Shown: positions 865 through 7,482 of the stretch, one piece after another | How the letters are laid out: the number at the start of each line of letters is the position of its first letter | Position numbering within the stretch: position 1 is the stretch's first letter | Source of the DNA: Thermoplasmatota archaeon | GTDB taxonomy: Archaea; Thermoplasmatota; UBA186; UBA287 | Assembly: GCA_034190325.1 (NCBI GenBank) | Contig: JAXHST010000081.1 | Span: forward strand, 1-61,537 | Direction: 5' to 3' | DNA length: 61,537 bases | Notes under the pieces: generated by a model | The model's input: only the letters and a program-made list of their open reading frames with translations | Databases searched by the model: none | Told to the model about the DNA's origin: nothing | Made by a program: the position numbers and the translations under genes

Positions 865-1542
865 TCATATGAGAGGTATGATCTCTGTGATCACATAGTT
901 CACAAAACTCTCAAAATCCGTTCTGCTGAACATCGTAACAACGCAATTCCTAGTCAACCCAACAACCCTGTTATTTAATGAAAAGACCACATACCACGGC
1001 TTTCCATGCTTAAGGTATTCTGCGTATAGCTCAGTATCCCTTAAGCTCTGCCCATAGAGTGAGAGCTTCTTTATGTCTGGTATATCTATATCGTCAAAGA
1101 ATATTACCTTGCTGTTGCTCTCTTCCGCAAGGTTCTGTAACACATCAGCTCCTATCCTTGACTCAACAATCTTGCCCAGACTTATAAATAGCTCCTTGCT
1201 GAGCATGTTTGCTATCTGGTTTGCTCTGCTCTTCTTTTCAAAGACTATGAGAAAAGAACCGTAAAAGATTATTGGCACATCCCTTGTTGCGGGTTGTGCT
1301 ATCCTCTGCCCTCTGTGGTTTATGTGTATAAGGTAATCTTCTCTGTACACCGCTCTTATCGCTTTTCCATCCTTTCTAACATCTTCAATGCTCTGCACAA
1401 GCTTTATTCCTTCCTCCTCTATATCCCTGTGCACAGTTTTGAGCTTGCCTGCGATCTCTCCCTCTTCCTCTACCCTGAATATCTTGCATGCCAGAACCAT
1501 ATGCTTAAATGCGATGTAAAGTTTAATATTTCTTCTATCCAT
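865..1542 (-). CDS. Hypothetical protein (225 aa), divergent from the SMC-like operon; weak Toprim-like E...DxD pattern
   Basis: Long ORF with host-like codon usage and no family recognised. A hydrophobic strand plus Glu (LIVFEKK, E102) and VIFFDDIDIPD about 49 aa later loosely resemble Toprim motifs. Start may be ATG 1542 or the internal Met at 1500. Confidence 0.5.
   Translation of the reverse strand: MDRRNIKLYIAFKHMVLACKIFRVEEEGEIAGKLKTVHRDIEEEGIKLVQSIEDVRKDGKAIRAVYREDYLIHINHRGQRIAQPATRDVPIIFYGSFLIVFEKKSRANQIANMLSKELFISLGKIVESRIGADVLQNLAEESNSKVIFFDDIDIPDIKKLSLYGQSLRDTELYAEYLKHGKPWYVVFSLNNRVVGLTRNCVVTMFSRTDFESFVNYVITEIIPLI
1521..1529 (+). promoter_or_regulatory. Candidate TATA box (TTTAATATT) for the SMC-like operon
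   Basis: A/T element 23-31 nt upstream of ATG 1552. AAGGAAG RBS-like sequence at 1545-1551. The element lies inside the first codons of the divergent gene. Confidence 0.25.
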
Positions 1543-1551
1543 TTAAGGAAG

Positions 1552-3198
1552 ATGGCATGGATAAAAGAAGTGCGGCTTGAGAACTTCATGAGCTATGATT
1601 ATGCCAGGATCCCACTGAAGGACGGGGTCAATCTCGTCGTAGGGCCTAATGGTAGCGGGAAGTCTTCAATCCTTTTAGCGATCTCTCTGGCCTTCGGGCA
1701 GATATACACAGAGCGCTCGAAAAAGCTGAGCGATCTCATCAAATGGGGCAAGGATGCTGCCAGAGTCTCTTTGTTGATAGACAACTCCAAAAAGAATGGT
1801 AGGAGAACATTTGGTTTCTCAAATTCAGACACAGTGATGATATCGCGCTATATAAAGAGTGATGGAAGCTACTGGTATGAGATAGACTACAGGGAAGCAA
1901 GCTTATATGAGGTTCAATCCATTTTCAAGAGGATCGGCATAAATCCGAGCAATATGCTCATAATAATGCACCAGAACACACTTGAGCGGTTCAGCGCTTT
2001 GAAGCCTGAGGAGAAACTTTCATTGCTTGAGGATGCTGTGGGTTTCGGGAGTTATAGGAGCAGGATCATAGATTCCAGGAAGAAGCTTCAATCTGTGAGA
2101 GATGAGCTTGAAGAGGTTGAAAAAAACTCTGCGAACGCCAATGAGACCCTGGCTTACTGGAACAGGGTTTATGAAGGGTTTTTGCAGAAGAAAAAGCTTG
2201 AGGAAAAGTTAGACTCTTTAGCTCTTGAGCTCTCCTGGGCTAAGGTCCTGCGGGAGGAAAAGGCTCTTGCGAAACTGGAGAAGGAGGCGGAGAAGAAGAA
2301 AAAGGATGTAGAGAGACTTGAGAAGGAGATAGGTCTCTGGAGTGCGGAAGCGGAAAAAATGAGAGAAGAGCTCCTGCGCAGCATTAGTGAAGAGTTGCTT
2401 GAGGCATATGTAAAAAAGAGGGTTGATGTTGCGCTTAATGCTTTCAAAATTGAGCTTTTAAAAGGAGAGATCCTCTCTTTGAATGAAGAGATAAAGAGGA
2501 TTGCGCAGTACATAGAATCTACAATGCCCCAGGGTGCGAGAATGGAGAGCAATAGAACAACAAAGGAGATAGAGGAAGAGATAGGAAAAACAAAGGAAGA
2601 GGTAGTAAGGATAGGGGACATTCCGGATAATGCGGAAGAGGTCTACAGAAGCTTTGCTGATGAGTTCTATAAAGTAGAGGAGAAGCGTAAAGAGCTGGAG
2701 GGAAACAGAGATGCTGTTGGGGGGGAGTTGAAGGAGAGAGAAAAGAAGTGGAGAGAGAAGGTTGAGGGGCTAATAAAGGGCATAGAGCCCAGGTTCAGAG
2801 CAATTCTGAGGGAGGTGGATGGGGATGGATACATAAAGGTTGTCGGGCAGAGTGTAGAGGAGAGCGGTCTGGAGATATATGTGGGTTTCAAGAGTAATGA
2901 GCCAAGGCTTCTGGATCCCATGACGCACAGCGGTGGTGAAAGGGCTGCAGCAACAATGGCTTTTCTTCTAGCGATACAGCAGAACATAAAATCAAAGTTC
3001 AGGGCTATAGATGAGTTTGATGTGCACATGGATCTGCGCAACAGGGAGAGGATCTACAACATAATAATAAGCAGCGTCAAAGAGGATGAGCAGTATCTGA
3101 TAATAACTCCCAACCAGATAACTGTGAGGGATGAGAGGATGGGCATTATTGTCGTGCAGAGAAGCGGAGAAGCTTTGGCTATGAAGAGGGAAGCATGA
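1552..3198 (+). CDS. Half-size SMC-like ABC ATPase (548 aa), short coiled coil, no hinge or zinc hook
   Basis: Walker A GPNGSGKSS (nt 1642-1668), Q-loop IIMHQNT, about 230 aa of heptad-rich E/K/L sequence, signature HSGGERAAATMAF (from nt 2929), Walker B FRAIDEFDVHMD (nt 2998-3033). Start set at MAWIKEVRLENF; the track's 1294 extension is antisense overlap with 865..1542. Confidence 0.8.
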   Translation: MAWIKEVRLENFMSYDYARIPLKDGVNLVVGPNGSGKSSILLAISLAFGQIYTERSKKLSDLIKWGKDAARVSLLIDNSKKNGRRTFGFSNSDTVMISRYIKSDGSYWYEIDYREASLYEVQSIFKRIGINPSNMLIIMHQNTLERFSALKPEEKLSLLEDAVGFGSYRSRIIDSRKKLQSVRDELEEVEKNSANANETLAYWNRVYEGFLQKKKLEEKLDSLALELSWAKVLREEKALAKLEKEAEKKKKDVERLEKEIGLWSAEAEKMREELLRSISEELLEAYVKKRVDVALNAFKIELLKGEILSLNEEIKRIAQYIESTMPQGARMESNRTTKEIEEEIGKTKEEVVRIGDIPDNAEEVYRSFADEFYKVEEKRKELEGNRDAVGGELKEREKKWREKVEGLIKGIEPRFRAILREVDGDGYIKVVGQSVEESGLEIYVGFKSNEPRLLDPMTHSGGERAAATMAFLLAIQQNIKSKFRAIDEFDVHMDLRNRERIYNIIISSVKEDEQYLIITPNQITVRDERMGIIVVQRSGEALAMKREA

Positions 3199-3908
3199 AT
3201 GTCTATGAGGAGATAGAGGAATTCCTTGAGATGTGCAAAAAGATAATTGAGGAAGGTAAGGATCCTTTCAACCTGGACGTAAAGGAAGCTTTAGAGAGAC
3301 TTAAGGGTTTGAAAGACAGCTTTGATGATCTCGATATGGACTCTGAAGCTTTATGGACGTTAACGGGGATCATTGAGGCACAGGAAGGGTGGCTGGAAAA
3401 GAGGCTGGGCTCAATGCTGATAGACCCCATGCTTGTTGAATTCAGAATAAAAGGGATGAGCAGGGAAGCGCTTAGAGCTCTGGCTATCAGGTGCTATCAT
3501 CCCCTGGCTACCATAGAGACTCTTACTACTGCAAGGATAAAGGAGGCTGCTGATTACTGGAGGGCGAAAGAGAAAGGTAAATGGGCTCTCGGTGAAGAGA
3601 GCGCACATGAAATAGAGCCCATATATCTAAAAGAGCTCTATAGCCTGGATATTCTCTCCAGGGAAGAGTTTGAAAAGAAGATGGATGAGCTAAAAAGAGA
3701 GCTCAGCGGTGTAAAAAGCACGGATTATTTTGATTTTGTGAATGGAAAGAACTTTCAGGAAACGTTTGAGAGAGCTTATGTTCTCTCATTTCTCATAACA
3801 GAGGGCTTTGTTCTGTTAGATGTGGACAGAATAAATGAGAAGGTAGAGATCGTAAGAGCTGGAAAAAAAGGAAAGAAAAGTTCTTCCGTTGCTATACCGG
3901 TGTGGTGA
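3195..3908 (+). CDS. Kleisin-like protein (ScpA/Nse4-like)
   Basis: ATGA start/stop overlap with the SMC-like gene. 237 aa with a helical N-terminus (KDPFNLDVKEALERL...) and a C-terminal winged-helix-like segment (FERAYVLSFLITEGFVLLDVDRINEKVEIV) like kleisin C-terminal domains. Assignment by pattern only. Confidence 0.5.
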   Translation: MNVYEEIEEFLEMCKKIIEEGKDPFNLDVKEALERLKGLKDSFDDLDMDSEALWTLTGIIEAQEGWLEKRLGSMLIDPMLVEFRIKGMSREALRALAIRCYHPLATIETLTTARIKEAADYWRAKEKGKWALGEESAHEIEPIYLKELYSLDILSREEFEKKMDELKRELSGVKSTDYFDFVNGKNFQETFERAYVLSFLITEGFVLLDVDRINEKVEIVRAGKKGKKSSSVAIPVW

Positions 3909-3910
3909 TC

Positions 3911-4393
3911 ATGGCTGACGAAAAGGAGAGAGCTCTGGAGCTTCTCATGCTGAGAAGACACAGGGTGCCAGGAGCAACAGAGAGCGAGCTTGTCTCAGAA
4001 TTTGGTAAAGGATACGCTGATATACTGAAAGAGCTAGAAGGAGCACTGCAATCTCTGGGTTTAGAGATAAGGGGCGTTGAGGACACAAAGGGAGAAAAGA
4101 GGTATTTCATAACCTTTAAAGAGGTAAAAAAGAAAACAAATACACCAAGGATAGATGAGGTCTCTGCTATAGTAGCTTGCGTGGCTTACATAAATGCAAA
4201 AAAAGAGAAGGTGAAGAGAGAAGAGCTTGAGGGTCTGCTGAAGGAAAAGTTCTCAAGAAGGTCAATAGAGATATACATCTCAAGGGCTATAAGAGGGGGA
4301 TACCTTGTTGAGAAGGATGGTTATTTTGATATAGGGTGGAGAAGCCATGCAGAGATAGATTTAAAAGAGTTGAGCAATATCCTTACTGGATGA
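3911..4393 (+). CDS. Tandem winged-helix 'kite' protein (ScpB / Nse3-MAGE-like)
   Basis: 161 aa, two WH-like halves. LELLMLRRHRVPGATESELVSEF..YADILKELEGALQSLGLEIRGVED...RYFITF and ...GGYLVEKDGYFDIGWRSHAEIDLKEL resemble the MAGE-homology WH-A/WH-B layout. ATG sits 3 nt after the upstream stop (alternative GTG at 3902). Confidence 0.5.
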   Translation: MADEKERALELLMLRRHRVPGATESELVSEFGKGYADILKELEGALQSLGLEIRGVEDTKGEKRYFITFKEVKKKTNTPRIDEVSAIVACVAYINAKKEKVKREELEGLLKEKFSRRSIEIYISRAIRGGYLVEKDGYFDIGWRSHAEIDLKELSNILTG

Positions 4394-4908
4394 GCTGGTA
4401 TTACGCTTTTAATGACGAGCTTCAGCAAAAACTGGATAGAGCATACGCGCTGTGCCAGAAGCTTCTCGCACTGAAGCGCGGGAGTGAGGAATACAAAGAA
4501 GCACTGAAACAACTTTTTGGGGGTATAGGGAATAAAACCGTGGTTAGAGTGCCATTTTTCTGTGATTATGGAAAGAACATCTTCATAGGCAGTGACTGCT
4601 TCATAAATTATGATTGTGTGTTCCTTGACGAAGGAAGAATCGACATAGGAGACAGAGTGTGGATCGGTCCGGGGGTGCACATATATGGTGTTGAGCATAA
4701 ACTCGAGGTAGATAAAAGGAGCAATATAAGAGATGTGCCTGTTGTTATAGAGAATGATGTGTGGATTGGTGGGCATGCCACGATATTGCCGGGCATTACG
4801 CTGGGCAGAGGCTGTGCGGTCGGCGCAGGGAGTGTTGTTACAAAGAGTGTGGATAGTAAAGCTGTTGTAGCTGGCAATCCGGCAAAGGAGATAAGGAAAA
4901 CAGTATAA
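4390..4908 (+). CDS. maa: Maltose/galactoside O-acetyltransferase-type hexapeptide-repeat acetyltransferase
   Basis: N-terminal Mac-like helix (ELQQKLDRAYALCQKL), then left-handed beta-helix repeats (IGDRVWIGPGVHI...VIENDVWIGGHATILPGITLGRGCAVGAGSVV). ATGA overlap with the upstream stop. Confidence 0.75.
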   Translation: MSWYYAFNDELQQKLDRAYALCQKLLALKRGSEEYKEALKQLFGGIGNKTVVRVPFFCDYGKNIFIGSDCFINYDCVFLDEGRIDIGDRVWIGPGVHIYGVEHKLEVDKRSNIRDVPVVIENDVWIGGHATILPGITLGRGCAVGAGSVVTKSVDSKAVVAGNPAKEIRKTV

Positions 4909-4931
4909 AGCAAAAAGTGCATAGTTTAATT

Positions 4932-5852
4932 ATGCGATTTAACCTTAGAAGAAAGAAAAAAGAAGAACCTTCTGTTGAAACTTTTGAGCAAAATTTTGTT
5001 CCACAACAGGAGTTCGCTCCACCGCAGGAGGGCAGCGCTCCGGACATTTTAGCGGACAGGGTTGACATGCTTGATTCCTCTGTATCAGCCATAAGAGGAT
5101 GGGTTGAAGATGCGAGGAATAGAATAACTGCTTTAGAGGGGACGGTTAATGATACCGTTGTGCCTCTGAGAAGAGATCTCGAAGATGTTAAGAAGGATGT
5201 AAGCTCGATGGACGAGAAGTTACAGCAGCTCATGGCATTGTATGAGGTCATATCGACGCAGTATAATCCATTTATAGAGACATCCGCAGCCCCACCACCG
5301 CAAGCCGAAAATGGGAGTAAAGAAGAGAAGGAGATTGAGCAGCTTTTGCGCTCTGTTGCCCCAGAAGAGTTTGCGACAGCTCCGGGCGAAAACGTTGTGG
5401 AGATGCAGGAGGGCTATGAGACTTTAGAGGAGCCTGAATCTGCTGAGCTTGCGCCCATAACAGAGGAGGAGTTCGGCGTTGACCTTGGGGGCGGTTATGA
5501 ACTTGGCTATGAGCCTAAGGCAGTTTTAGGCGGTATACCAGATACTTACAGTAGCAACGCATTCACCATAAAACTTCTTGAATTCCTTATATCTAAGATC
5601 GGTAGAAAAAACCTCCCAGATCTATTAGAATACTATGAATCTATAGGCTGGATAGGTAAGGATGCAAGGAAGCAGCTTCTTGAAATGGCATCAGGTGTCT
5701 CTGTCAGCGAGGGTTTTTCCACAGACTGGAAGCTGAGCGCTGCTGATAACCTCAAGGTGCTTCAGTTCATCCAGGAAATAAGGGGGAAGCCAATAAGGAA
5801 GAGCGAGCTTGAAGAGATTGAGAGAAAGGCAGAGAAAATAAAGGGTGTATGA
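4932..5852 (+). CDS. Archaellum accessory protein ArlC/D/E (FlaC-like coiled coil plus FlaD/E domain)
   Basis: N-terminal coiled coil (DRVDMLDSSVSAIRGWVEDARNRITALEG...) and C-terminal FlaD/E signature (FTIKLLEFLISKIGRKNLPDLLEYYESIGWIGKDARKQLLEMASG). Confidence 0.65.
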   Translation: MRFNLRRKKKEEPSVETFEQNFVPQQEFAPPQEGSAPDILADRVDMLDSSVSAIRGWVEDARNRITALEGTVNDTVVPLRRDLEDVKKDVSSMDEKLQQLMALYEVISTQYNPFIETSAAPPPQAENGSKEEKEIEQLLRSVAPEEFATAPGENVVEMQEGYETLEEPESAELAPITEEEFGVDLGGGYELGYEPKAVLGGIPDTYSSNAFTIKLLEFLISKIGRKNLPDLLEYYESIGWIGKDARKQLLEMASGVSVSEGFSTDWKLSAADNLKVLQFIQEIRGKPIRKSELEEIERKAEKIKGV

Positions 5853-6256
5853 GCCTAAGCTCTGTGGCTGTAACATCAATTCTGGTGGTAGGGCTCATAG
5901 TCGCAGGTGGAATTTTATTACAGAGCATAACATTCAATCTGGAGCGCTTTATAGAAGGGTATGAGAATCTATACGAAATAAATAGCTCAGCAAGGGAGAT
6001 AGAGGTAAGAATAGAGGATATCCACGTTTCAGCAAGGGATGCTGTTTTGAGGATAGATGTGCTAAATGAAGGGCAAAGAGAAGTTAGTGATATATACGTG
6101 ATGGTCGATGGATCCGTCGTTCTGCACGAAAATAGCACGGTTTTCCCTTATGAGACCATAACCTTAGAGATACCTATAGAAAAAGCGAACCTGCGGAGAG
6201 GGAGCAGGATAAAGGTCATAGCTGATGGCTTCGCTGCTTACGCTGTATACTCCTAG
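5849..6256 (+). CDS. ArlF/ArlG-like (FlaF/FlaG family) protein
   Basis: ATGA overlap with the ArlCDE gene. N-terminal hydrophobic helix (VAVTSILVVGLIVAGGILL) followed by a beta-rich domain, 135 aa, typical of FlaF/FlaG. Confidence 0.45.
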   Translation: MSLSSVAVTSILVVGLIVAGGILLQSITFNLERFIEGYENLYEINSSAREIEVRIEDIHVSARDAVLRIDVLNEGQREVSDIYVMVDGSVVLHENSTVFPYETITLEIPIEKANLRRGSRIKVIADGFAAYAVYS

Positions 6257-7482
6257 GCTATCTCGTAGTTTTCCCCATCTTTTGGCAGAAGAACATTGTA
6301 ATTTGACAGATCCTTCGCCAGTAGCTCTCTCTTATCTCCATGGTAGAGCACAACATTTTCAGGCCTGCATTCGTCTATAAATCTCACAAGAGCCCTGTGA
6401 TCAGCATGCGCAGAGAAATCAAAGAACTTTACATTACATTTTGGTTTTCCTATATCCCCATCGAGCTCTATCGTCCCTGTGTCAAGCAGTCTTCTTCCAT
6501 TGGTGCCCTCAACCTGGTATCCTGTAAGAAATATGCTGTTTCTTTCATCATCCTTTATGTGTTTTATATAGAACAGTGCCGGTCCTCCATCGAGCATACC
6601 GCTTGTGGTTATCACCGCACCCCCGTTCTTCAAAAGCTTTTTTCTGTGCGAGTCATTGTTTACAAACTTTACACGACTGAGCGCTTTTTTTAGCTTGCTT
6701 GCAGATCGCAAAAATTTCCCATCGCTCAAGAATGTTGTTGCGATCCTTTTGCTCATACCATCCAGATAAACATCTATACCAAGGCCCTCAAGCATCATGG
6801 CTACTTCCTGGCTTCTTGCTACAGCAAACGCGGGTATGACAGCTACGCCTCCCCTCTTTATGGTATCGCTAACATCATCTCTGAACTCTTTTACAAGCTC
6901 TTCTCTGTTCGGGTGTTCTCTTCCTGCATATGTTGATTCTATGAAAAGGTTATCACACCTTATCGGCTTTACCCCACCTATCAACATGGAATCTACTGTG
7001 TTCATATCGCCTGTTATCAGAGTCCTTGAACCGTTGTTTATTTCAAACATTGTTGACCCTGGTATGTGTCCGGAGGAATATCCCCTTATATCTATTCCTC
7101 CTAGCTCAAATTTCTCACCATACTCTACAGGCTCGAAGTAGTTGCGCAAACTTGCTACATCACCCTCAGAGAATGGAAGGCTATAGCCCTCTAACTTTGA
7201 TACCTTTAGATTATCTCTGGCAAGGATCTCTGTTATGCTCTGCGTCATTGTGGTGGCAAATATCCTTGGTCCCCTTGCGGAAGAGAGCCAGGGTATGAGA
7301 CCACTGTGGTCTACGTGTGCGTGGGTCAGCAAGCAGAAATCTATGTTCGGACTTTCCTTAGGGAAAGATGGCGGTTTGCCCGGTGTAAACCCATAGTCCA
7401 ACAAAAACCTGTACTCGGGCAAATCGAACAGTATGCCCGCCATACCGACCTCTTCAGCTCCTCCTAGAAAAGAGAATTTCAT
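6253..7482 (-). CDS. Metallo-beta-lactamase / beta-CASP ribonuclease (aCPSF2-like)
   Basis: HxHxDH motif (LLTHAHVDHSG); C-terminal beta-CASP-type motifs (FSAHADH, VLYHGD); 409 aa with no KH domains. Its stop overlaps the arlF/G-like stop (CTAG). Confidence 0.75.
   Translation of the reverse strand: MKFSFLGGAEEVGMAGILFDLPEYRFLLDYGFTPGKPPSFPKESPNIDFCLLTHAHVDHSGLIPWLSSARGPRIFATTMTQSITEILARDNLKVSKLEGYSLPFSEGDVASLRNYFEPVEYGEKFELGGIDIRGYSSGHIPGSTMFEINNGSRTLITGDMNTVDSMLIGGVKPIRCDNLFIESTYAGREHPNREELVKEFRDDVSDTIKRGGVAVIPAFAVARSQEVAMMLEGLGIDVYLDGMSKRIATTFLSDGKFLRSASKLKKALSRVKFVNNDSHRKKLLKNGGAVITTSGMLDGGPALFYIKHIKDDERNSIFLTGYQVEGTNGRRLLDTGTIELDGDIGKPKCNVKFFDFSAHADHRALVRFIDECRPENVVLYHGDKRELLAKDLSNYNVLLPKDGENYEIA

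What the first reader, a model, noticed from the sequence alone, without database searches (positions are those of the whole stretch)
865..4393. Miniature SMC / kleisin / MAGE-like kite operon with SMC5/6-type head motifs, plus a divergent uncharacterised partner
Seen in sequence: a 548 aa ABC ATPase with an SMC-type split head (Walker A GPNGSGKSS, Q-loop, signature SGGERAAATMAF, Walker B FRAIDEFDVHMD). The intervening coiled coil is only about 230 aa, with no hinge domain and no CxxC zinc hook. Its stop overlaps (ATGA) a 237 aa protein with kleisin-like N- and C-terminal (winged-helix) patterns. Next comes a 161 aa tandem winged-helix protein. Established knowledge: SGGER..xT plus DEFDVxMD is the head signature I associate with eukaryotic SMC6/SMC5, not canonical prokaryotic SMC (DEVDAALD). 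Inference: the small protein's LxLLxLRR...ESELxxxF..Y..ILKELxxxLxxLGLEI and YLVEKDG.YFDIGWRSHAE strings look like the MAGE/Nse3 WH-A/WH-B layout. That makes a three-gene, half-size SMC5/6-like (SMC-Nse4-Nse3) module in an archaeon. The divergent 225 aa gene starting 9 bp away has a weak Toprim-like pattern (LIVFE...49 aa...FFDDID). If real, that would instead suggest a compact Wadjet/JetABCD-like DNA-sensing or restriction module. Either reading would be unusual.
Basis: partly seen in the sequence, partly recalled or inferred. Interest (0 to 1): 0.8.

Follow-up and report, generated by a model that had tools for sequence, protein, structure and literature searches.

The report
Short-armed archaeal SMC5/6-like operon
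This is a compact archaeal relative of the eukaryotic SMC5/6 DNA-repair complex (ATPase, kleisin and kite genes in one operon). The kind is already in the literature; this copy has very short, hinge-less arms and a conserved neighbouring gene for an RdgC-like DNA-binding protein.

Summary
Window 1552-4393 carries three tightly coupled genes: a 548-aa SMC-type ABC ATPase, a 237-aa kleisin and a 160-aa tandem winged-helix kite. A fourth gene runs divergently at 865-1500.

The ATPase family profile hits yeast and human SMC6 and SMC5 ahead of every other solved SMC. Outside archaea, its nearest labelled relatives among 1.84 billion proteins are eukaryotic SMC5/SMC6. The kleisin family hits Nse4_C/EID3/Nse4. 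The kite model matches Nse1/Nse3(MAGE) best.

It is not new. A 94%-identical locus in Thermoplasmata archaeon WOFA06 is listed as an "SMC5/6-related" SMC-kleisin-kite cluster in van Hooff et al. (bioRxiv 2024/25). Yoshinaga & Inagaki (2021) defined the ATPase clade.

The Toprim/Wadjet alternative is rejected. The divergent protein has an RdgC fold (pLDDT 88; E about 1e-6 to 1e-7 against E. coli and phage RdgC).

I found two points not discussed in those papers:
- The family has no hinge domain, and the window protein has no cysteine. All length variation maps to one arm-tip site.
- The RdgC-fold gene is linked to the operon in several archaeal phyla, often together with Lhr helicase and an MPE-type phosphoesterase. 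This suggests a recombination/repair role.

The parts
865..1500 (-). Divergent gene for a 211-aa RdgC-fold protein ('P4'). The ORF runs up to 1542, but homologues support the start at Met15.
   Evidence: The family has 30 word-search relatives and 480 genomic places. The AF2 model has pLDDT 87.7 and pTM 0.85. Foldseek gives E. coli RdgC 2owl at E 2.9e-6 and TMq 0.63, and phage RdgC/'recombination-associated' proteins at E 2e-7 to 7e-4. There are no Pfam, NCBIfam, PADLOC or PDB sequence hits.
1501..1551 (.). 51-bp divergent intergenic region with an AT-rich box, TTTAATATT, at 1522-1530. The box centre (1526) is 26 bp from both start codons. Putative shared or bidirectional promoter (inference).
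   Evidence: Sequence read. Spacings of 51-62 bp occur in the sister genome L010 and in the distant L007 and L009. Thaumarchaeal loci have 80-200 bp with two separate TATA-like boxes.
1552..3198 (+). 548-aa SMC5/6-related SMC-type ABC ATPase, short-armed and without a hinge.
   Evidence: Pfam SMC_N 7e-36. PDB: Smc5 1e-27 and Smc6 9e-22. Family profile: Smc6 2.4e-75, Smc5 9e-70, Pyrococcus Smc 1.5e-58. 98 cluster representatives score E<1e-30, mostly 541-690 aa.
1642..1668 (+). Walker A motif, GPNGSGKSS (aa 31-39).
   Evidence: G31 P32 N33 G34 G36 K37 S38 are invariant in the family alignment.
2050..2790 (+). Arm region (aa about 167-413). Predicted antiparallel coiled coil with its tip near aa 275-290 and a break at aa about 324-336 (MPQGARMESNR). 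No hinge and no CxxC.
   Evidence: Crude heptad and charge profile, 0 Cys. All family length variation is a single 137-column gap after residue 274. No PF06470 hit in the window protein or in the relatives scanned (P0046, 657 aa, and the four of about 1000 aa).
2929..2943 (+). ABC signature motif, SGGER (aa 460-464).
   Evidence: S460 G461 G462 E463 are invariant. The motif aligns with the SGGE of yeast Smc6.
2998..3033 (+). Walker B and D-loop, FRAIDEFDVHMD (aa 483-494). ITP follows at aa 518-520 (nt 3103-3111).
   Evidence: D487 E488 H492 D494 P520 are invariant. The region aligns with yeast Smc6 ALDEFDVFMD and IIITPQDI.
3195..3908 (+). 237-aa Nse4-type kleisin. Its start overlaps the ATPase stop (ATGA). 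The C-terminal winged helix is at aa 177-218 (nt 3723-3848).
   Evidence: Pfam Nse4_C scores 22.4 bits against a cut-off of 26. 6 of 8 close and 15 of 24 broad family members hit Nse4_C, best 2.4e-7. The broad profile against PDB gives EID3 4.4e-4, yeast Nse4 5.8e-3 and the ScpA N-domain 0.21 for aa 6-72. The overlap is verified.
3911..4393 (+). 160-aa kite (tandem winged helix) of the Nse1/Nse3(MAGE) type.
   Evidence: The AF2 model has pLDDT 81.6. Foldseek against PDB ranks NSE1/MAGE-G1 5hvq and Nse1-Nse3-Nse4 7dg2 first (E about 3e-5), then MAGE-A11/A4, ScpB, MukE and JetB. 4 of 7 close relatives hit Pfam SMC_Nse1, best 4.7e-6. The broad profile's best PDB hit is the MAGE chain 7dg2_C at E 0.04.
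4390..4908 (+). 172-aa hexapeptide (LbH/Mac) acetyltransferase whose ATG overlaps the kite stop (ATGA). Probably co-transcribed, and probably a lineage-specific passenger rather than a subunit.
   Evidence: Pfam Hexapep 7e-14 and Mac 2e-4. The overlap is verified. The same 4-bp overlap occurs in L001, L003 and L004. The gene is absent next to the kite in L007 and L041.

Best explanation
The locus encodes an archaeal 'SMC5/6-related' SMC complex.

Shown by sequence and structure comparison:
- The 548-aa protein is an SMC-type ABC ATPase of the SMC5/6 clade with all catalytic motifs intact.
- The next gene is an Nse4-type kleisin.
- The third gene is an Nse1/Nse3-type kite.
- The three genes are translationally coupled.

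Inferred from what is established for Smc-ScpAB and Smc5/6-Nse1/3/4:
- Two ATPase subunits form a homodimer whose heads sandwich two ATP molecules between Walker A/B and the signature motif.
- One kleisin bridges the neck of one subunit and the cap of the other.
- A kite homodimer sits on the kleisin.
- ATP-driven head engagement clamps DNA on top of the heads.

Unlike eukaryotic SMC5/6 and the one Asgard relative examined (P0121), the arms are only about 105 residues per strand (about 15 nm). They end in a simple turn, with no hinge domain and no zinc hook.

The divergently transcribed neighbour encodes an RdgC-fold protein, presumably a DNA-encircling dimer. It is genomically linked to this operon in several archaeal phyla. 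Elsewhere it is flanked by Lhr helicase and an MPE-type phosphoesterase. From this I infer that the complex works in recombination, replication-fork or DNA-junction processing, like SMC5/6, rather than in bulk chromosome condensation.
For: ATPase:
- Pfam SMC_N 7e-36.
- Best PDB sequence hits are Smc5 at 1e-27 and Smc6 at 9e-22.
- The 45-member family profile gives Smc6 2.4e-75, Smc5 9e-70, human SMC6 1e-69, Pyrococcus Smc 1.5e-58 and Smc2 3e-55.
- In 1.84 billion representatives, the family (98 hits at E<1e-30, mostly 541-690 aa) is followed by hits of 780-1170 aa. Those I labelled are an Asgard Freyarchaeum protein and fungal and spider SMC6/SMC5.
- The catalytic residues are invariant.

Kleisin.

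Kite.

Operon structure.

Conservation of P4<->ATPase-kleisin-kite:
- At 30-47% identity in a Thermoproteota MAG.
- In 43 of 67 informative P4 loci spanning Thermoplasmatota, Nitrososphaeria, Bathyarchaeia, Hydrothermarchaeota, Methanophagales, Methanosarcinales and Halobacteria MAGs.

Published classification of the ortholog: WOYO01000046.1_17/_16/_15 is listed as SMC5/6-related SMC, Nse4-related kleisin and Nse1,3-related kite. That contig is 94% identical in DNA, and 94-96% in protein, to the window.

RdgC fold of P4.

Lhr/MPE context. The archaeal Lhr-MPE link is known from PMC8301817.
Against: - There is no experimental evidence and no complex prediction. Subunit contacts, stoichiometry and DNA clamping are transferred from homologous complexes.
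- The window's own kleisin scores below Pfam's cut-off (22.4 against 26 bits), and its own kite has no sequence hit. Their assignment rests on family-level hits, one AF2 model and gene position.
- No structure was predicted for the ATPase. 'Hinge-less' rests on the absence of profile hits, the absence of Cys and a crude heptad analysis, so a tiny novel dimerisation element at the tip cannot be excluded.
- The P4 link is synteny only. 24 of 67 informative P4 loci, mainly ANME-1 and Methanosarcinales, have no such ATPase nearby.
- The loci were sampled through P4, so the reverse frequency is unknown.
- Many loci are closely related Nitrososphaerales.
- The window lineage itself lacks Lhr and MPE within 61 kb.
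Confidence: 0.8

Rival explanations
1. A compact Wadjet/JetABCD-like (or Lamassu/Gabija-like) anti-plasmid or anti-virus defence module, in which the divergent gene supplies a Toprim nuclease.
For: The ATPase gives generic hits to PADLOC ABC-ATPase models: mad3 104 bits, LmuB 53, AriA 52, JetC 34. The kite model also matches JetB at fold level, at rank 30. It is established that eukaryotic SMC5/6 restricts extrachromosomal viral DNA, so a restriction-type role is not absurd.
Against: - The kleisin, the kite and P4 have no PADLOC hit.
- P4 has an RdgC fold, not Toprim/JetD.
- No nuclease gene lies in the cassette in the window.
- In the window and its close relatives the locus sits among housekeeping genes, not in a defence island. 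The cassette recurs next to varied ordinary genes across archaeal phyla.
- SMC5/6 outranks JetC and MukB by far.
Confidence: 0.05
2. A divergent, shortened copy of the canonical archaeal condensin Smc-ScpA-ScpB that does general chromosome organisation.
For: NCBIfam SMC_prok_A/B are the best NCBIfam hits, at about 160 bits. The Pyrococcus Smc head is a strong PDB hit. ScpB and the ScpA N-domain appear among weaker kite and kleisin matches.
Against: - The NCBIfam scores are far below the cut-offs of 567 and 729 bits, and NCBIfam returned no SMC5/6 family to compete.
- With PDB as reference, SMC6 and SMC5 beat archaeal Smc by 37-55 bits.
- The kleisin C-terminus is of Nse4 type, and the kite is closest to Nse1/Nse3.
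- The sister genome is reported to have a separate canonical SMC-kleisin-ScpB cluster on contig WOYO01000050.1.
Confidence: 0.05
3. A kleisin-less SMC-related repair or organiser ATPase (Rad50/SbcC, RecN, RecF, arcadin-4, or ASRP/ClsN/Sph) whose neighbours are unrelated.
For: The protein's size (548 aa) resembles RecN and ASRP. There are weak NCBIfam hits to Rad50 (62 bits), ASRP (56), RecF (50) and arcadin-4 (42).
Against: - All those scores are far below the cut-offs and below the SMC scores.
- ASRPs carry a zinc hook (PMC9389158), whereas this protein has no cysteine.
- The kleisin and the kite are identified independently and are always adjacent.
Confidence: 0.02
4. The three-gene SMC5/6-like complex is real, but the RdgC-fold gene is only a neighbour. 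It belongs to an Lhr-MPE repair cassette that happens to sit next to the operon in some lineages, and it has no functional tie to the operon.
For: P4 is found without the ATPase in 24 of 67 informative loci, and next to Lhr alone in ANME-1 and Methanosarcinales contigs. MPE follows P4 directly in 31 of 73 loci.
Against: The tight divergent arrangement with the ATPase (38-62 bp) recurs in lineages that lack Lhr and MPE nearby, including the window, its relatives and L007. It also spans several phyla.
Confidence: 0.3

Closest known systems
Archaeal 'SMC5/6-related' SMC complex (Yoshinaga & Inagaki 2021, PMC8665677; van Hooff, Raas, Tromer & Eme, bioRxiv 10.1101/2024.01.07.573240)
   Same: The ATPase clade, the Nse4-related kleisin, the Nse1/3-related kite and the SMC-kleisin-kite gene order are the same. 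The ortholog in Thermoplasmata archaeon WOFA06 (UBA287) is one of that paper's example clusters, and one of two in Euryarchaeota.
   Different: Nothing differs in kind. Text searches of both papers and of the van Hooff supplement for 'shorter', 'hinge' and related terms found no discussion of arm length or loss of the hinge. I did not search them for RdgC, Lhr or a fourth gene; the passages I read on the gene clusters do not mention one.
Eukaryotic SMC5/6 core (Smc5-Smc6-Nse4-Nse1-Nse3)
   Same: Head sequence signature (DEFDVxMD, ITPx), the Nse4_C winged helix, the MAGE/Nse1-like tandem winged-helix kite, and a likely link to recombination and repair.
   Different: - A single ATPase gene (homodimer) instead of the Smc5/Smc6 heterodimer.
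- 548 aa against about 1100 aa.
- No hinge.
- One 160-aa kite with no room for the C-terminal RING of Nse1, instead of Nse1+Nse3.
- No Nse2, Nse5 or Nse6 recognised in or beside the cassette.
Prokaryotic Smc-ScpA-ScpB
   Same: Homodimeric SMC, one kleisin, a kite dimer and an operon organisation. The kleisin N-domain gives a faint ScpA-N hit.
   Different: The heads, the kleisin C-domain and the kite are all closer to the SMC5/6 versions. The arms are about a third as long, and there is no hinge.
Wadjet JetABCD / MksBEFG
   Same: SMC-kleisin-kite architecture. JetB is a fold-level match of the kite at rank 30.
   Different: There is no JetD/Toprim nuclease, no MukF/JetA-type kleisin hit, and only weak JetC scores. 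The fourth gene has an RdgC fold.
ASRP family (ClsN/coalescin, Sph1/2; NF045487)
   Same: An archaeal SMC-superfamily ATPase of about 600 aa with short arms.
   Different: ASRPs have a zinc hook, and no kleisin or kite partner is reported for them. This protein scores 55.6 bits against a cut-off of 300 and has no Cys.
RdgC (E. coli 2owl, P. aeruginosa 2owy; phage RdgC-like proteins)
   Same: P4's predicted fold matches with TMq 0.55-0.66 and E 2e-7 to 3e-5.
   Different: P4 is 211 aa against about 300 aa. It has no detectable sequence similarity (8-12% identity, no PF04381 hit). It is archaeal and linked to an SMC operon. RdgC-like proteins reported in Halobacteria sit in a different operon, with 'RdgC histones' (PMC11390915).

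Membership tests
Archaeal SMC5/6-related SMC complex | SMC-type ABC ATPase whose head groups with SMC5/SMC6 rather than with canonical SMC | tested here: met
   Ranking by score, not a tree. PDB single sequence; family profile Smc6 2.4e-75 and Smc5 9e-70 against archaeal Smc 1.5e-58. The next labelled relatives in 1.84 billion proteins are an Asgard protein and eukaryotic SMC5/6. The published tree includes the ortholog.
Archaeal SMC5/6-related SMC complex | Adjacent Nse4-related kleisin | tested here: met
   Nse4_C is hit in 15 of 24 family members, best 2.4e-7. The window copy scores 22.4 bits, below the cut-off of 26. PDB gives EID3 at 4.4e-4 and Nse4 at 5.8e-3. The ATGA overlap with the ATPase is verified.
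Archaeal SMC5/6-related SMC complex | Adjacent Nse1/Nse3-related kite | tested here: met
   Foldseek top hits are Nse1/MAGE-G1 and Nse1-Nse3-Nse4. SMC_Nse1 is hit in 4 of 7 close relatives. 7dg2_C MAGE is the best profile hit, but weak at E 0.04.
Archaeal SMC5/6-related SMC complex | Orthology to a published example cluster | tested here: met
   L010 = WOYO01000046.1 is 94% identical in DNA over 7.7 kb and 94-96% in each protein. Genes _17/_16/_15 are listed in Supplementary Table 3.
Archaeal SMC5/6-related SMC complex | Coexistence with a separate canonical SMC-kleisin-ScpB set in the genome | not testable with these tools
   There is no second SMC-like ORF in the 61.5-kb window. It is reported for the sister genome on another contig.
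Eukaryotic SMC5/6 holocomplex | Smc5/Smc6 heterodimer with about 50-nm arms joined by a hinge domain | tested here: not met
   There is one ATPase gene of 548 aa. PF06470 is not hit, while the Asgard and fungal relatives do hit it. The arm is about 105 residues per strand.
Eukaryotic SMC5/6 holocomplex | Nse1 RING, Nse2 SUMO ligase, Nse5/Nse6 | tested here: not met
   There is a single 160-aa kite with no Pfam hit of its own. The genes flanking the cassette are a hexapeptide acetyltransferase, a FlaD/E-like gene and the RdgC-fold gene. The rest of the window was not scanned for these proteins.
Wadjet / JetABCD | JetD-type Toprim nuclease partner | tested here: not met
   P4 has no Pfam, PADLOC or PDB sequence hit. 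Its confident model matches only RdgC-type folds.
Wadjet / JetABCD | MukB/JetC-type ATPase and MukF/JetA-type kleisin | tested here: not met
   JetC models score at most 34 bits, and the kleisin has no PADLOC hit.
ASRP (ClsN/Sph) | NF045487 above its cut-off, and a zinc hook at the arm tip | tested here: not met
   55.6 bits against a cut-off of 300. The protein has 0 Cys. The zinc hook is a family trait according to PMC9389158.
RdgC family (PF04381) | RdgC fold | tested here: met
   Matches 2owl, 2owy and 14 phage proteins, most of them named RdgC, 'recombination-associated protein' or 'exonuclease', at E<1e-3 with TMq up to 0.66.
RdgC family (PF04381) | Sequence-profile membership | tested here: not met
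   None of the 25 family members hits PF04381, even at E<=10.
RdgC family (PF04381) | Ring-shaped homodimer that binds DNA and modulates the recombinase | not testable with these tools
   This needs a multimer prediction or biochemistry.

The most novel reading that the evidence does not exclude
The TACK and euryarchaeal branch of the SMC5/6-related family is a naturally minimal, hinge-less SMC5/6. Its arm length is free to vary from about 100 to about 350 residues per strand at a single tip site. It works as one functional module with an RdgC-fold DNA ring protein, and in many lineages also with Lhr helicase and an MPE nuclease. If so, the SMC5/6 lineage was tied to recombination and fork repair before eukaryotes arose, and neither a hinge nor long arms are needed for its core activity.
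Probability: 0.3. Interest if true: 0.65.

Novelty: already known. Interest (0 to 1): 0.4.

Why it matters
As an instance of the archaeal SMC5/6-related complex, the locus adds little, because its ortholog is already tabulated.

It could still matter in three ways:
- **Minimal model.** A 548-aa ATPase with a 237-aa kleisin and a 160-aa kite is roughly half the mass per SMC of the eukaryotic core. It needs only three genes, which makes it attractive for structural and single-molecule work on how SMC5/6-type machines clamp or move DNA.
- **Hinge and arm length.** The apparent absence of a hinge and the freely variable arm length make it possible to test what hinges and long arms are for.
- **Repair context.** The recurrent neighbourhood of RdgC-fold protein, Lhr helicase and MPE phosphoesterase gives a concrete hypothesis. 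It suggests that the repair and recombination role of SMC5/6 predates eukaryotes.

Tried and rejected
- **Single-sequence profile searches of the kite and P4.** Pfam, NCBIfam, PADLOC and PDB gave nothing.
- **Narrow kite profile against PDB.** It gave only spurious U1A and MYC2 hits. Family-member scans and structure prediction were needed instead.
- **Toprim/JetD reading of P4.** Rejected: the LIVFE...FFDDID pattern lies in a protein whose confident model is RdgC-like.
- **Wadjet, Lamassu or Gabija membership.** Rejected: only generic ABC-ATPase cross-hits.
- **ASRP/ClsN, Rad50, RecN, RecF.** Rejected on score, on the lack of a zinc hook, and on the presence of a kleisin and a kite.
- **Start codons ATG 1542 (P4) and GTG 3902 (kite).** Rejected in favour of Met15 (position 1500) and ATG 3911, because homologues begin there.
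- **Hexapeptide acetyltransferase as a fourth subunit.** Not adopted. The 4-bp overlap is conserved only among close relatives and is absent in the distant loci inspected (L007, L041).
- **A canonical SMC or other SMC paralogue in the window.** None found.
- **Literature searches using terms with '/' or ','.** These failed on syntax. One reformulated search found nothing relevant.
- **Shared-promoter idea.** Only weakly supported. The equidistant AT-rich box is seen in the window lineage, while other lineages have longer spacers with two boxes.

Full report
**What is there**

The ORF map shows the genes at the coordinates given.
- A 548-aa protein is encoded at 1552-3198. It lies inside a longer 634-aa ORF, and the homologues support the internal ATG.
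- A 237-aa protein is encoded at 3195-3908. Its ATG overlaps the upstream stop as ATGA.
- A small protein follows. Its homologues start at ATG 3911, giving 160 aa, 2 nt after the kleisin stop.
- On the other strand is a gene whose homologues begin at Met15, giving 865-1500 and 211 aa. The divergent spacer is therefore 51 bp, not 9 bp.
- The kite stop overlaps (ATGA, 4390-4393) a 172-aa hexapeptide acetyltransferase.

- G31-S38 (Walker A)
- Q141 (Q-loop)
- S460-E463 (signature)
- D487/E488 (Walker B)
- H492/D494 (D-loop)

**The ATPase**

- Pfam gives SMC_N at 7e-36 and no hinge.
- NCBIfam scores for SMC_prok, Rad50, ASRP, RecF, arcadin-4 and RecN are all far below their cut-offs.
- Against solved structures, the single sequence ranks yeast Smc5 (1e-27) first and Smc6 (9e-22) close behind, with the Pyrococcus Smc head between them.
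- The family profile separates them clearly:

| Solved structure | E-value |
|---|---|
| Yeast Smc6 | 2.4e-75 |
| Yeast Smc5 | 9e-70 |
| Human SMC6 | 1e-69 |
| Human SMC5 | 6e-65 |
| Pyrococcus Smc | 1.5e-58 |
| Smc2 | 3e-55 |
| Smc3 | about 1e-45 |
| Rad50 | about 1e-14 |

- The printed alignment shows family DEFDvHmD and viTP aligned with Smc6 DEFDVFMD and IITPQ.
- An exhaustive HMMER scan of 1.84 billion representatives found 98 proteins at E<1e-30, almost all 541-690 aa. The next hits are 780-1170 aa at 25-30% identity.
- The ones I labelled are an Asgard (Freyarchaeum) protein of 835 aa, two fungal proteins and a spider SMC5. Two of the eukaryotic three are named SMC5 by their sources. 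P0144 I take to be an SMC6 from its N-terminal extension.

So, after its own family, the nearest labelled relatives are SMC5/6 proteins, not canonical SMC.

**Arms and hinge**

- All length variation in the family is one 137-column gap placed after residue 274 of the window protein. The window protein has the shortest centre.
- The extra sequence in longer members looks like more charged heptad sequence, not a domain.
- None of P0046 (657 aa) or the four members of about 1000 aa hits SMC_hinge. One of those (P0067) was traced to Bathyarchaeota.
- In contrast, the Asgard protein and two of the three eukaryotic proteins scanned do hit SMC_hinge.
- The window protein has no cysteine, so a zinc hook is excluded.
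- A crude heptad and charge profile shows coiled-coil character over residues about 167-415, with dips near 231, 279-290 (the tip) and 335.

'Miniature, hinge-less, hook-less' is therefore supported at sequence level.

**Kleisin**

- The window protein hits Nse4_C just below threshold (22.4 against 26 bits, aa 177-218).
- Its only PDB hits are EID3 and Nse4 (E 0.36-1.2).
- The family is small in the word-indexed database, with 8 hits.
- It could be extended through synteny to 24 diverse members. Of these, 15 hit Nse4_C (best 2.4e-7).
- The broad profile hits EID3 (4.4e-4) and yeast Nse4 (5.8e-3). For the N-terminal 70 residues it hits the ScpA N-domain faintly (0.21).

**Kite**

- Only 6 relatives were found by word search. 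Four of the seven aligned sequences (the six relatives plus the window copy) hit Pfam SMC_Nse1, best 4.7e-6.
- An AF2 model (pLDDT 81.6) shows two winged-helix units.
- Its best PDB matches are, in order, NSE1/MAGE-G1 (5hvq), the Nse1-Nse3-Nse4 complex (7dg2), MAGE-A11/A4, ScpB, MukE and JetB. All of these are kites, with the SMC5/6 ones first.
- A broader profile's best PDB hit is the MAGE chain of 7dg2, though only at E 0.04.

**The divergent gene**

- It has no hit in Pfam, NCBIfam, PADLOC or PDB sequences, alone or as a 25-member profile.
- Its AF2 model is confident (pLDDT 87.7, pTM 0.85).
- In PDB it matches only RdgC significantly: E. coli 2owl at E 2.9e-6 and TMq 0.63, and P. aeruginosa 2owy.
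- In the viral library, the 14 matches at E<1e-3 are mostly named phage RdgC, 'recombination-associated protein' or 'exonuclease'. The rest are unnamed (best 2.2e-7, TMq 0.66).

The Toprim/JetD idea is therefore rejected. The protein has an RdgC fold but is not a sequence-level member of PF04381.

**Conservation and context**

- Close relatives at 52-95% identity keep P4<->ATPase-kleisin-kite-hexapep-FlaD/E.
- A Thermoproteota MAG keeps the four core genes at 47, 40, 30 and 35% identity.
- A scan of one genome per species found 480 P4 relatives. They occur in Nitrososphaeria, Bathyarchaeia, Methanophagales, Methanosarcinales, Halobacteria MAGs, Hydrothermarchaeota and Thermoplasmata.
- In the best 80 loci, an iterative search of all ORFs found the short ATPase in 43 of 67 informative loci. 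In 24 it lay within 200 bp and divergent, and in 19 it lay within 0.2-5 kb. Kleisin and kite followed it wherever the flank allowed.
- Where a few kb intervene, the insert is an Lhr helicase directly upstream of P4 (Pfam DEAD, Helicase_C, WH_Lhr, DEAD_assoc).
- A calcineurin-type phosphoesterase follows P4 directly in 31 of 73 loci.
- Several ANME-1 and Methanosarcinales contigs have Lhr divergent to P4 with no SMC nearby.
- An Lhr-MPE link in archaea and bacteria is already known (PMC8301817). That study annotated neighbours with TIGR profiles only, which would not reveal an unannotated protein like P4.

This sampling started from P4 and is phylogenetically redundant. It shows recurrent linkage, not a rate.

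**What the literature already says**

- Yoshinaga & Inagaki (2021) defined 'SMC5/6-related aSMC' in TACK, Euryarchaeota, Asgard and Thermoplasmatota.
- Van Hooff et al. (bioRxiv, version of May 2025) showed that these sit in operons with Nse4-related kleisins and Nse1/3-related kites.
- Their Supplementary Table 3 lists Thermoplasmata archaeon WOFA06 (GTDB UBA287) with SMC5/6-related genes WOYO01000046.1_17/_16/_15. It also lists a separate canonical cluster on WOYO01000050.1.
- That contig is my locus L010. It is 94% identical in DNA to the window over 7.7 kb, and 94-96% identical in each of the four proteins.

Term searches of these papers and the supplement found no discussion of arm length or the hinge. 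The cluster descriptions I read mention no fourth gene. ASRPs (ClsN/Sph) are a different family, with a zinc hook.

**How it most likely works**

Shown:
- An intact SMC5/6-clade ABC ATPase.
- An Nse4-type kleisin.
- An Nse1/3-type kite.
- Tight translational coupling of the three genes.
- A linked gene for an RdgC-fold protein.

Inferred from Smc-ScpAB and Smc5/6 structures:
- An ATPase homodimer whose heads engage on ATP.
- One kleisin that bridges the neck of one subunit and the cap of the other.
- A kite homodimer on the kleisin.
- DNA clamped on the engaged heads.

Further inference: the RdgC-fold, Lhr and MPE context points to recombination-intermediate or stalled-fork processing rather than bulk compaction. 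The 51-bp spacer has an AT-rich box centred 26 bp from both start codons. This may mean a shared promoter region, but the support is weak.

**Verdict**

- The kind is already known.
- Residual interest lies in the hinge-less minimal architecture and in the RdgC/Lhr/MPE linkage, both of which need multimer modelling and biochemistry.

Noticed in passing
window 4390-4908 (+): A 172-aa hexapeptide (LbH, Mac-capped) acetyltransferase starts with an ATGA overlap on the kite stop, so it is probably co-translated with the SMC5/6-like operon. The same overlap occurs in L001, L003 and L004. The gene is absent next to the kite in the distant loci inspected (L007, L041).
   Followed up: partly
window 4917-6256 (+): A FlaC/FlaD-E-like archaellum accessory gene (about 306-311 aa) and a 135-aa gene follow the acetyltransferase directly. 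The order is the same in L001, L003 and L004.
   Followed up: no
L015, L028, L034, L038, L039, L053, L055, L072-L079, L084-L089 (for example L055 4125-8444): In Nitrososphaeria, Bathyarchaeia and Hydrothermarchaeota the RdgC-fold gene sits in an Lhr helicase - P4 - metallophosphoesterase (MPE-like) arrangement beside the SMC5/6-like operon. I found no description of this in the papers read. Some ANME-1 and Methanosarcinales contigs have Lhr divergent to P4 with no SMC nearby.
   Followed up: partly
L007 / L008 / L081, 1-3975: In a Thermoproteota MAG a HerA(DUF87)-Mre11-Rad50 cluster lies about 0.8 kb beyond the kite gene, separated by one NTP-transferase gene. It is a second DNA-repair neighbourhood for the same cassette.
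   Followed up: no
L009 6224-8702: A 'Euryarchaeota archaeon' MAG keeps the divergent P4<->ATPase pair (573 aa, 39% identical). An AMP-binding enzyme follows the ATPase, and no kleisin or kite is seen within 6 kb.
   Followed up: no
L004 5697-6321: The P4 copy in this 54.8-kb metagenome contig is split (a 128-aa ORF plus a fragment). The same gene is intact (214 aa) in L005 and L006 from other samples. This may be a frameshift or an assembly error.
   Followed up: no
L072: The record is labelled 'bacterium' but carries the thaumarchaeal-type Lhr-P4-MPE plus SMC5/6-like cluster. It is probably a mislabelled archaeal MAG.
   Followed up: no
window 6253-7482 (-): A 409-aa ORF with an HxHxDH motif (metallo-beta-lactamase / beta-CASP-like by eye) lies downstream of the archaellum genes. 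It was not analysed.
   Followed up: no
window ATPase aa 328-335 (nt 2533-2556): A conserved break in the C-terminal arm helix, with family consensus G-P-R-v-E-T-x-R (GARMESNR in the window). The invariant Trp203, Trp229 and Trp400 also lie in the arms. This may be a joint or kleisin-neck contact, but it is unexplained.
   Followed up: no
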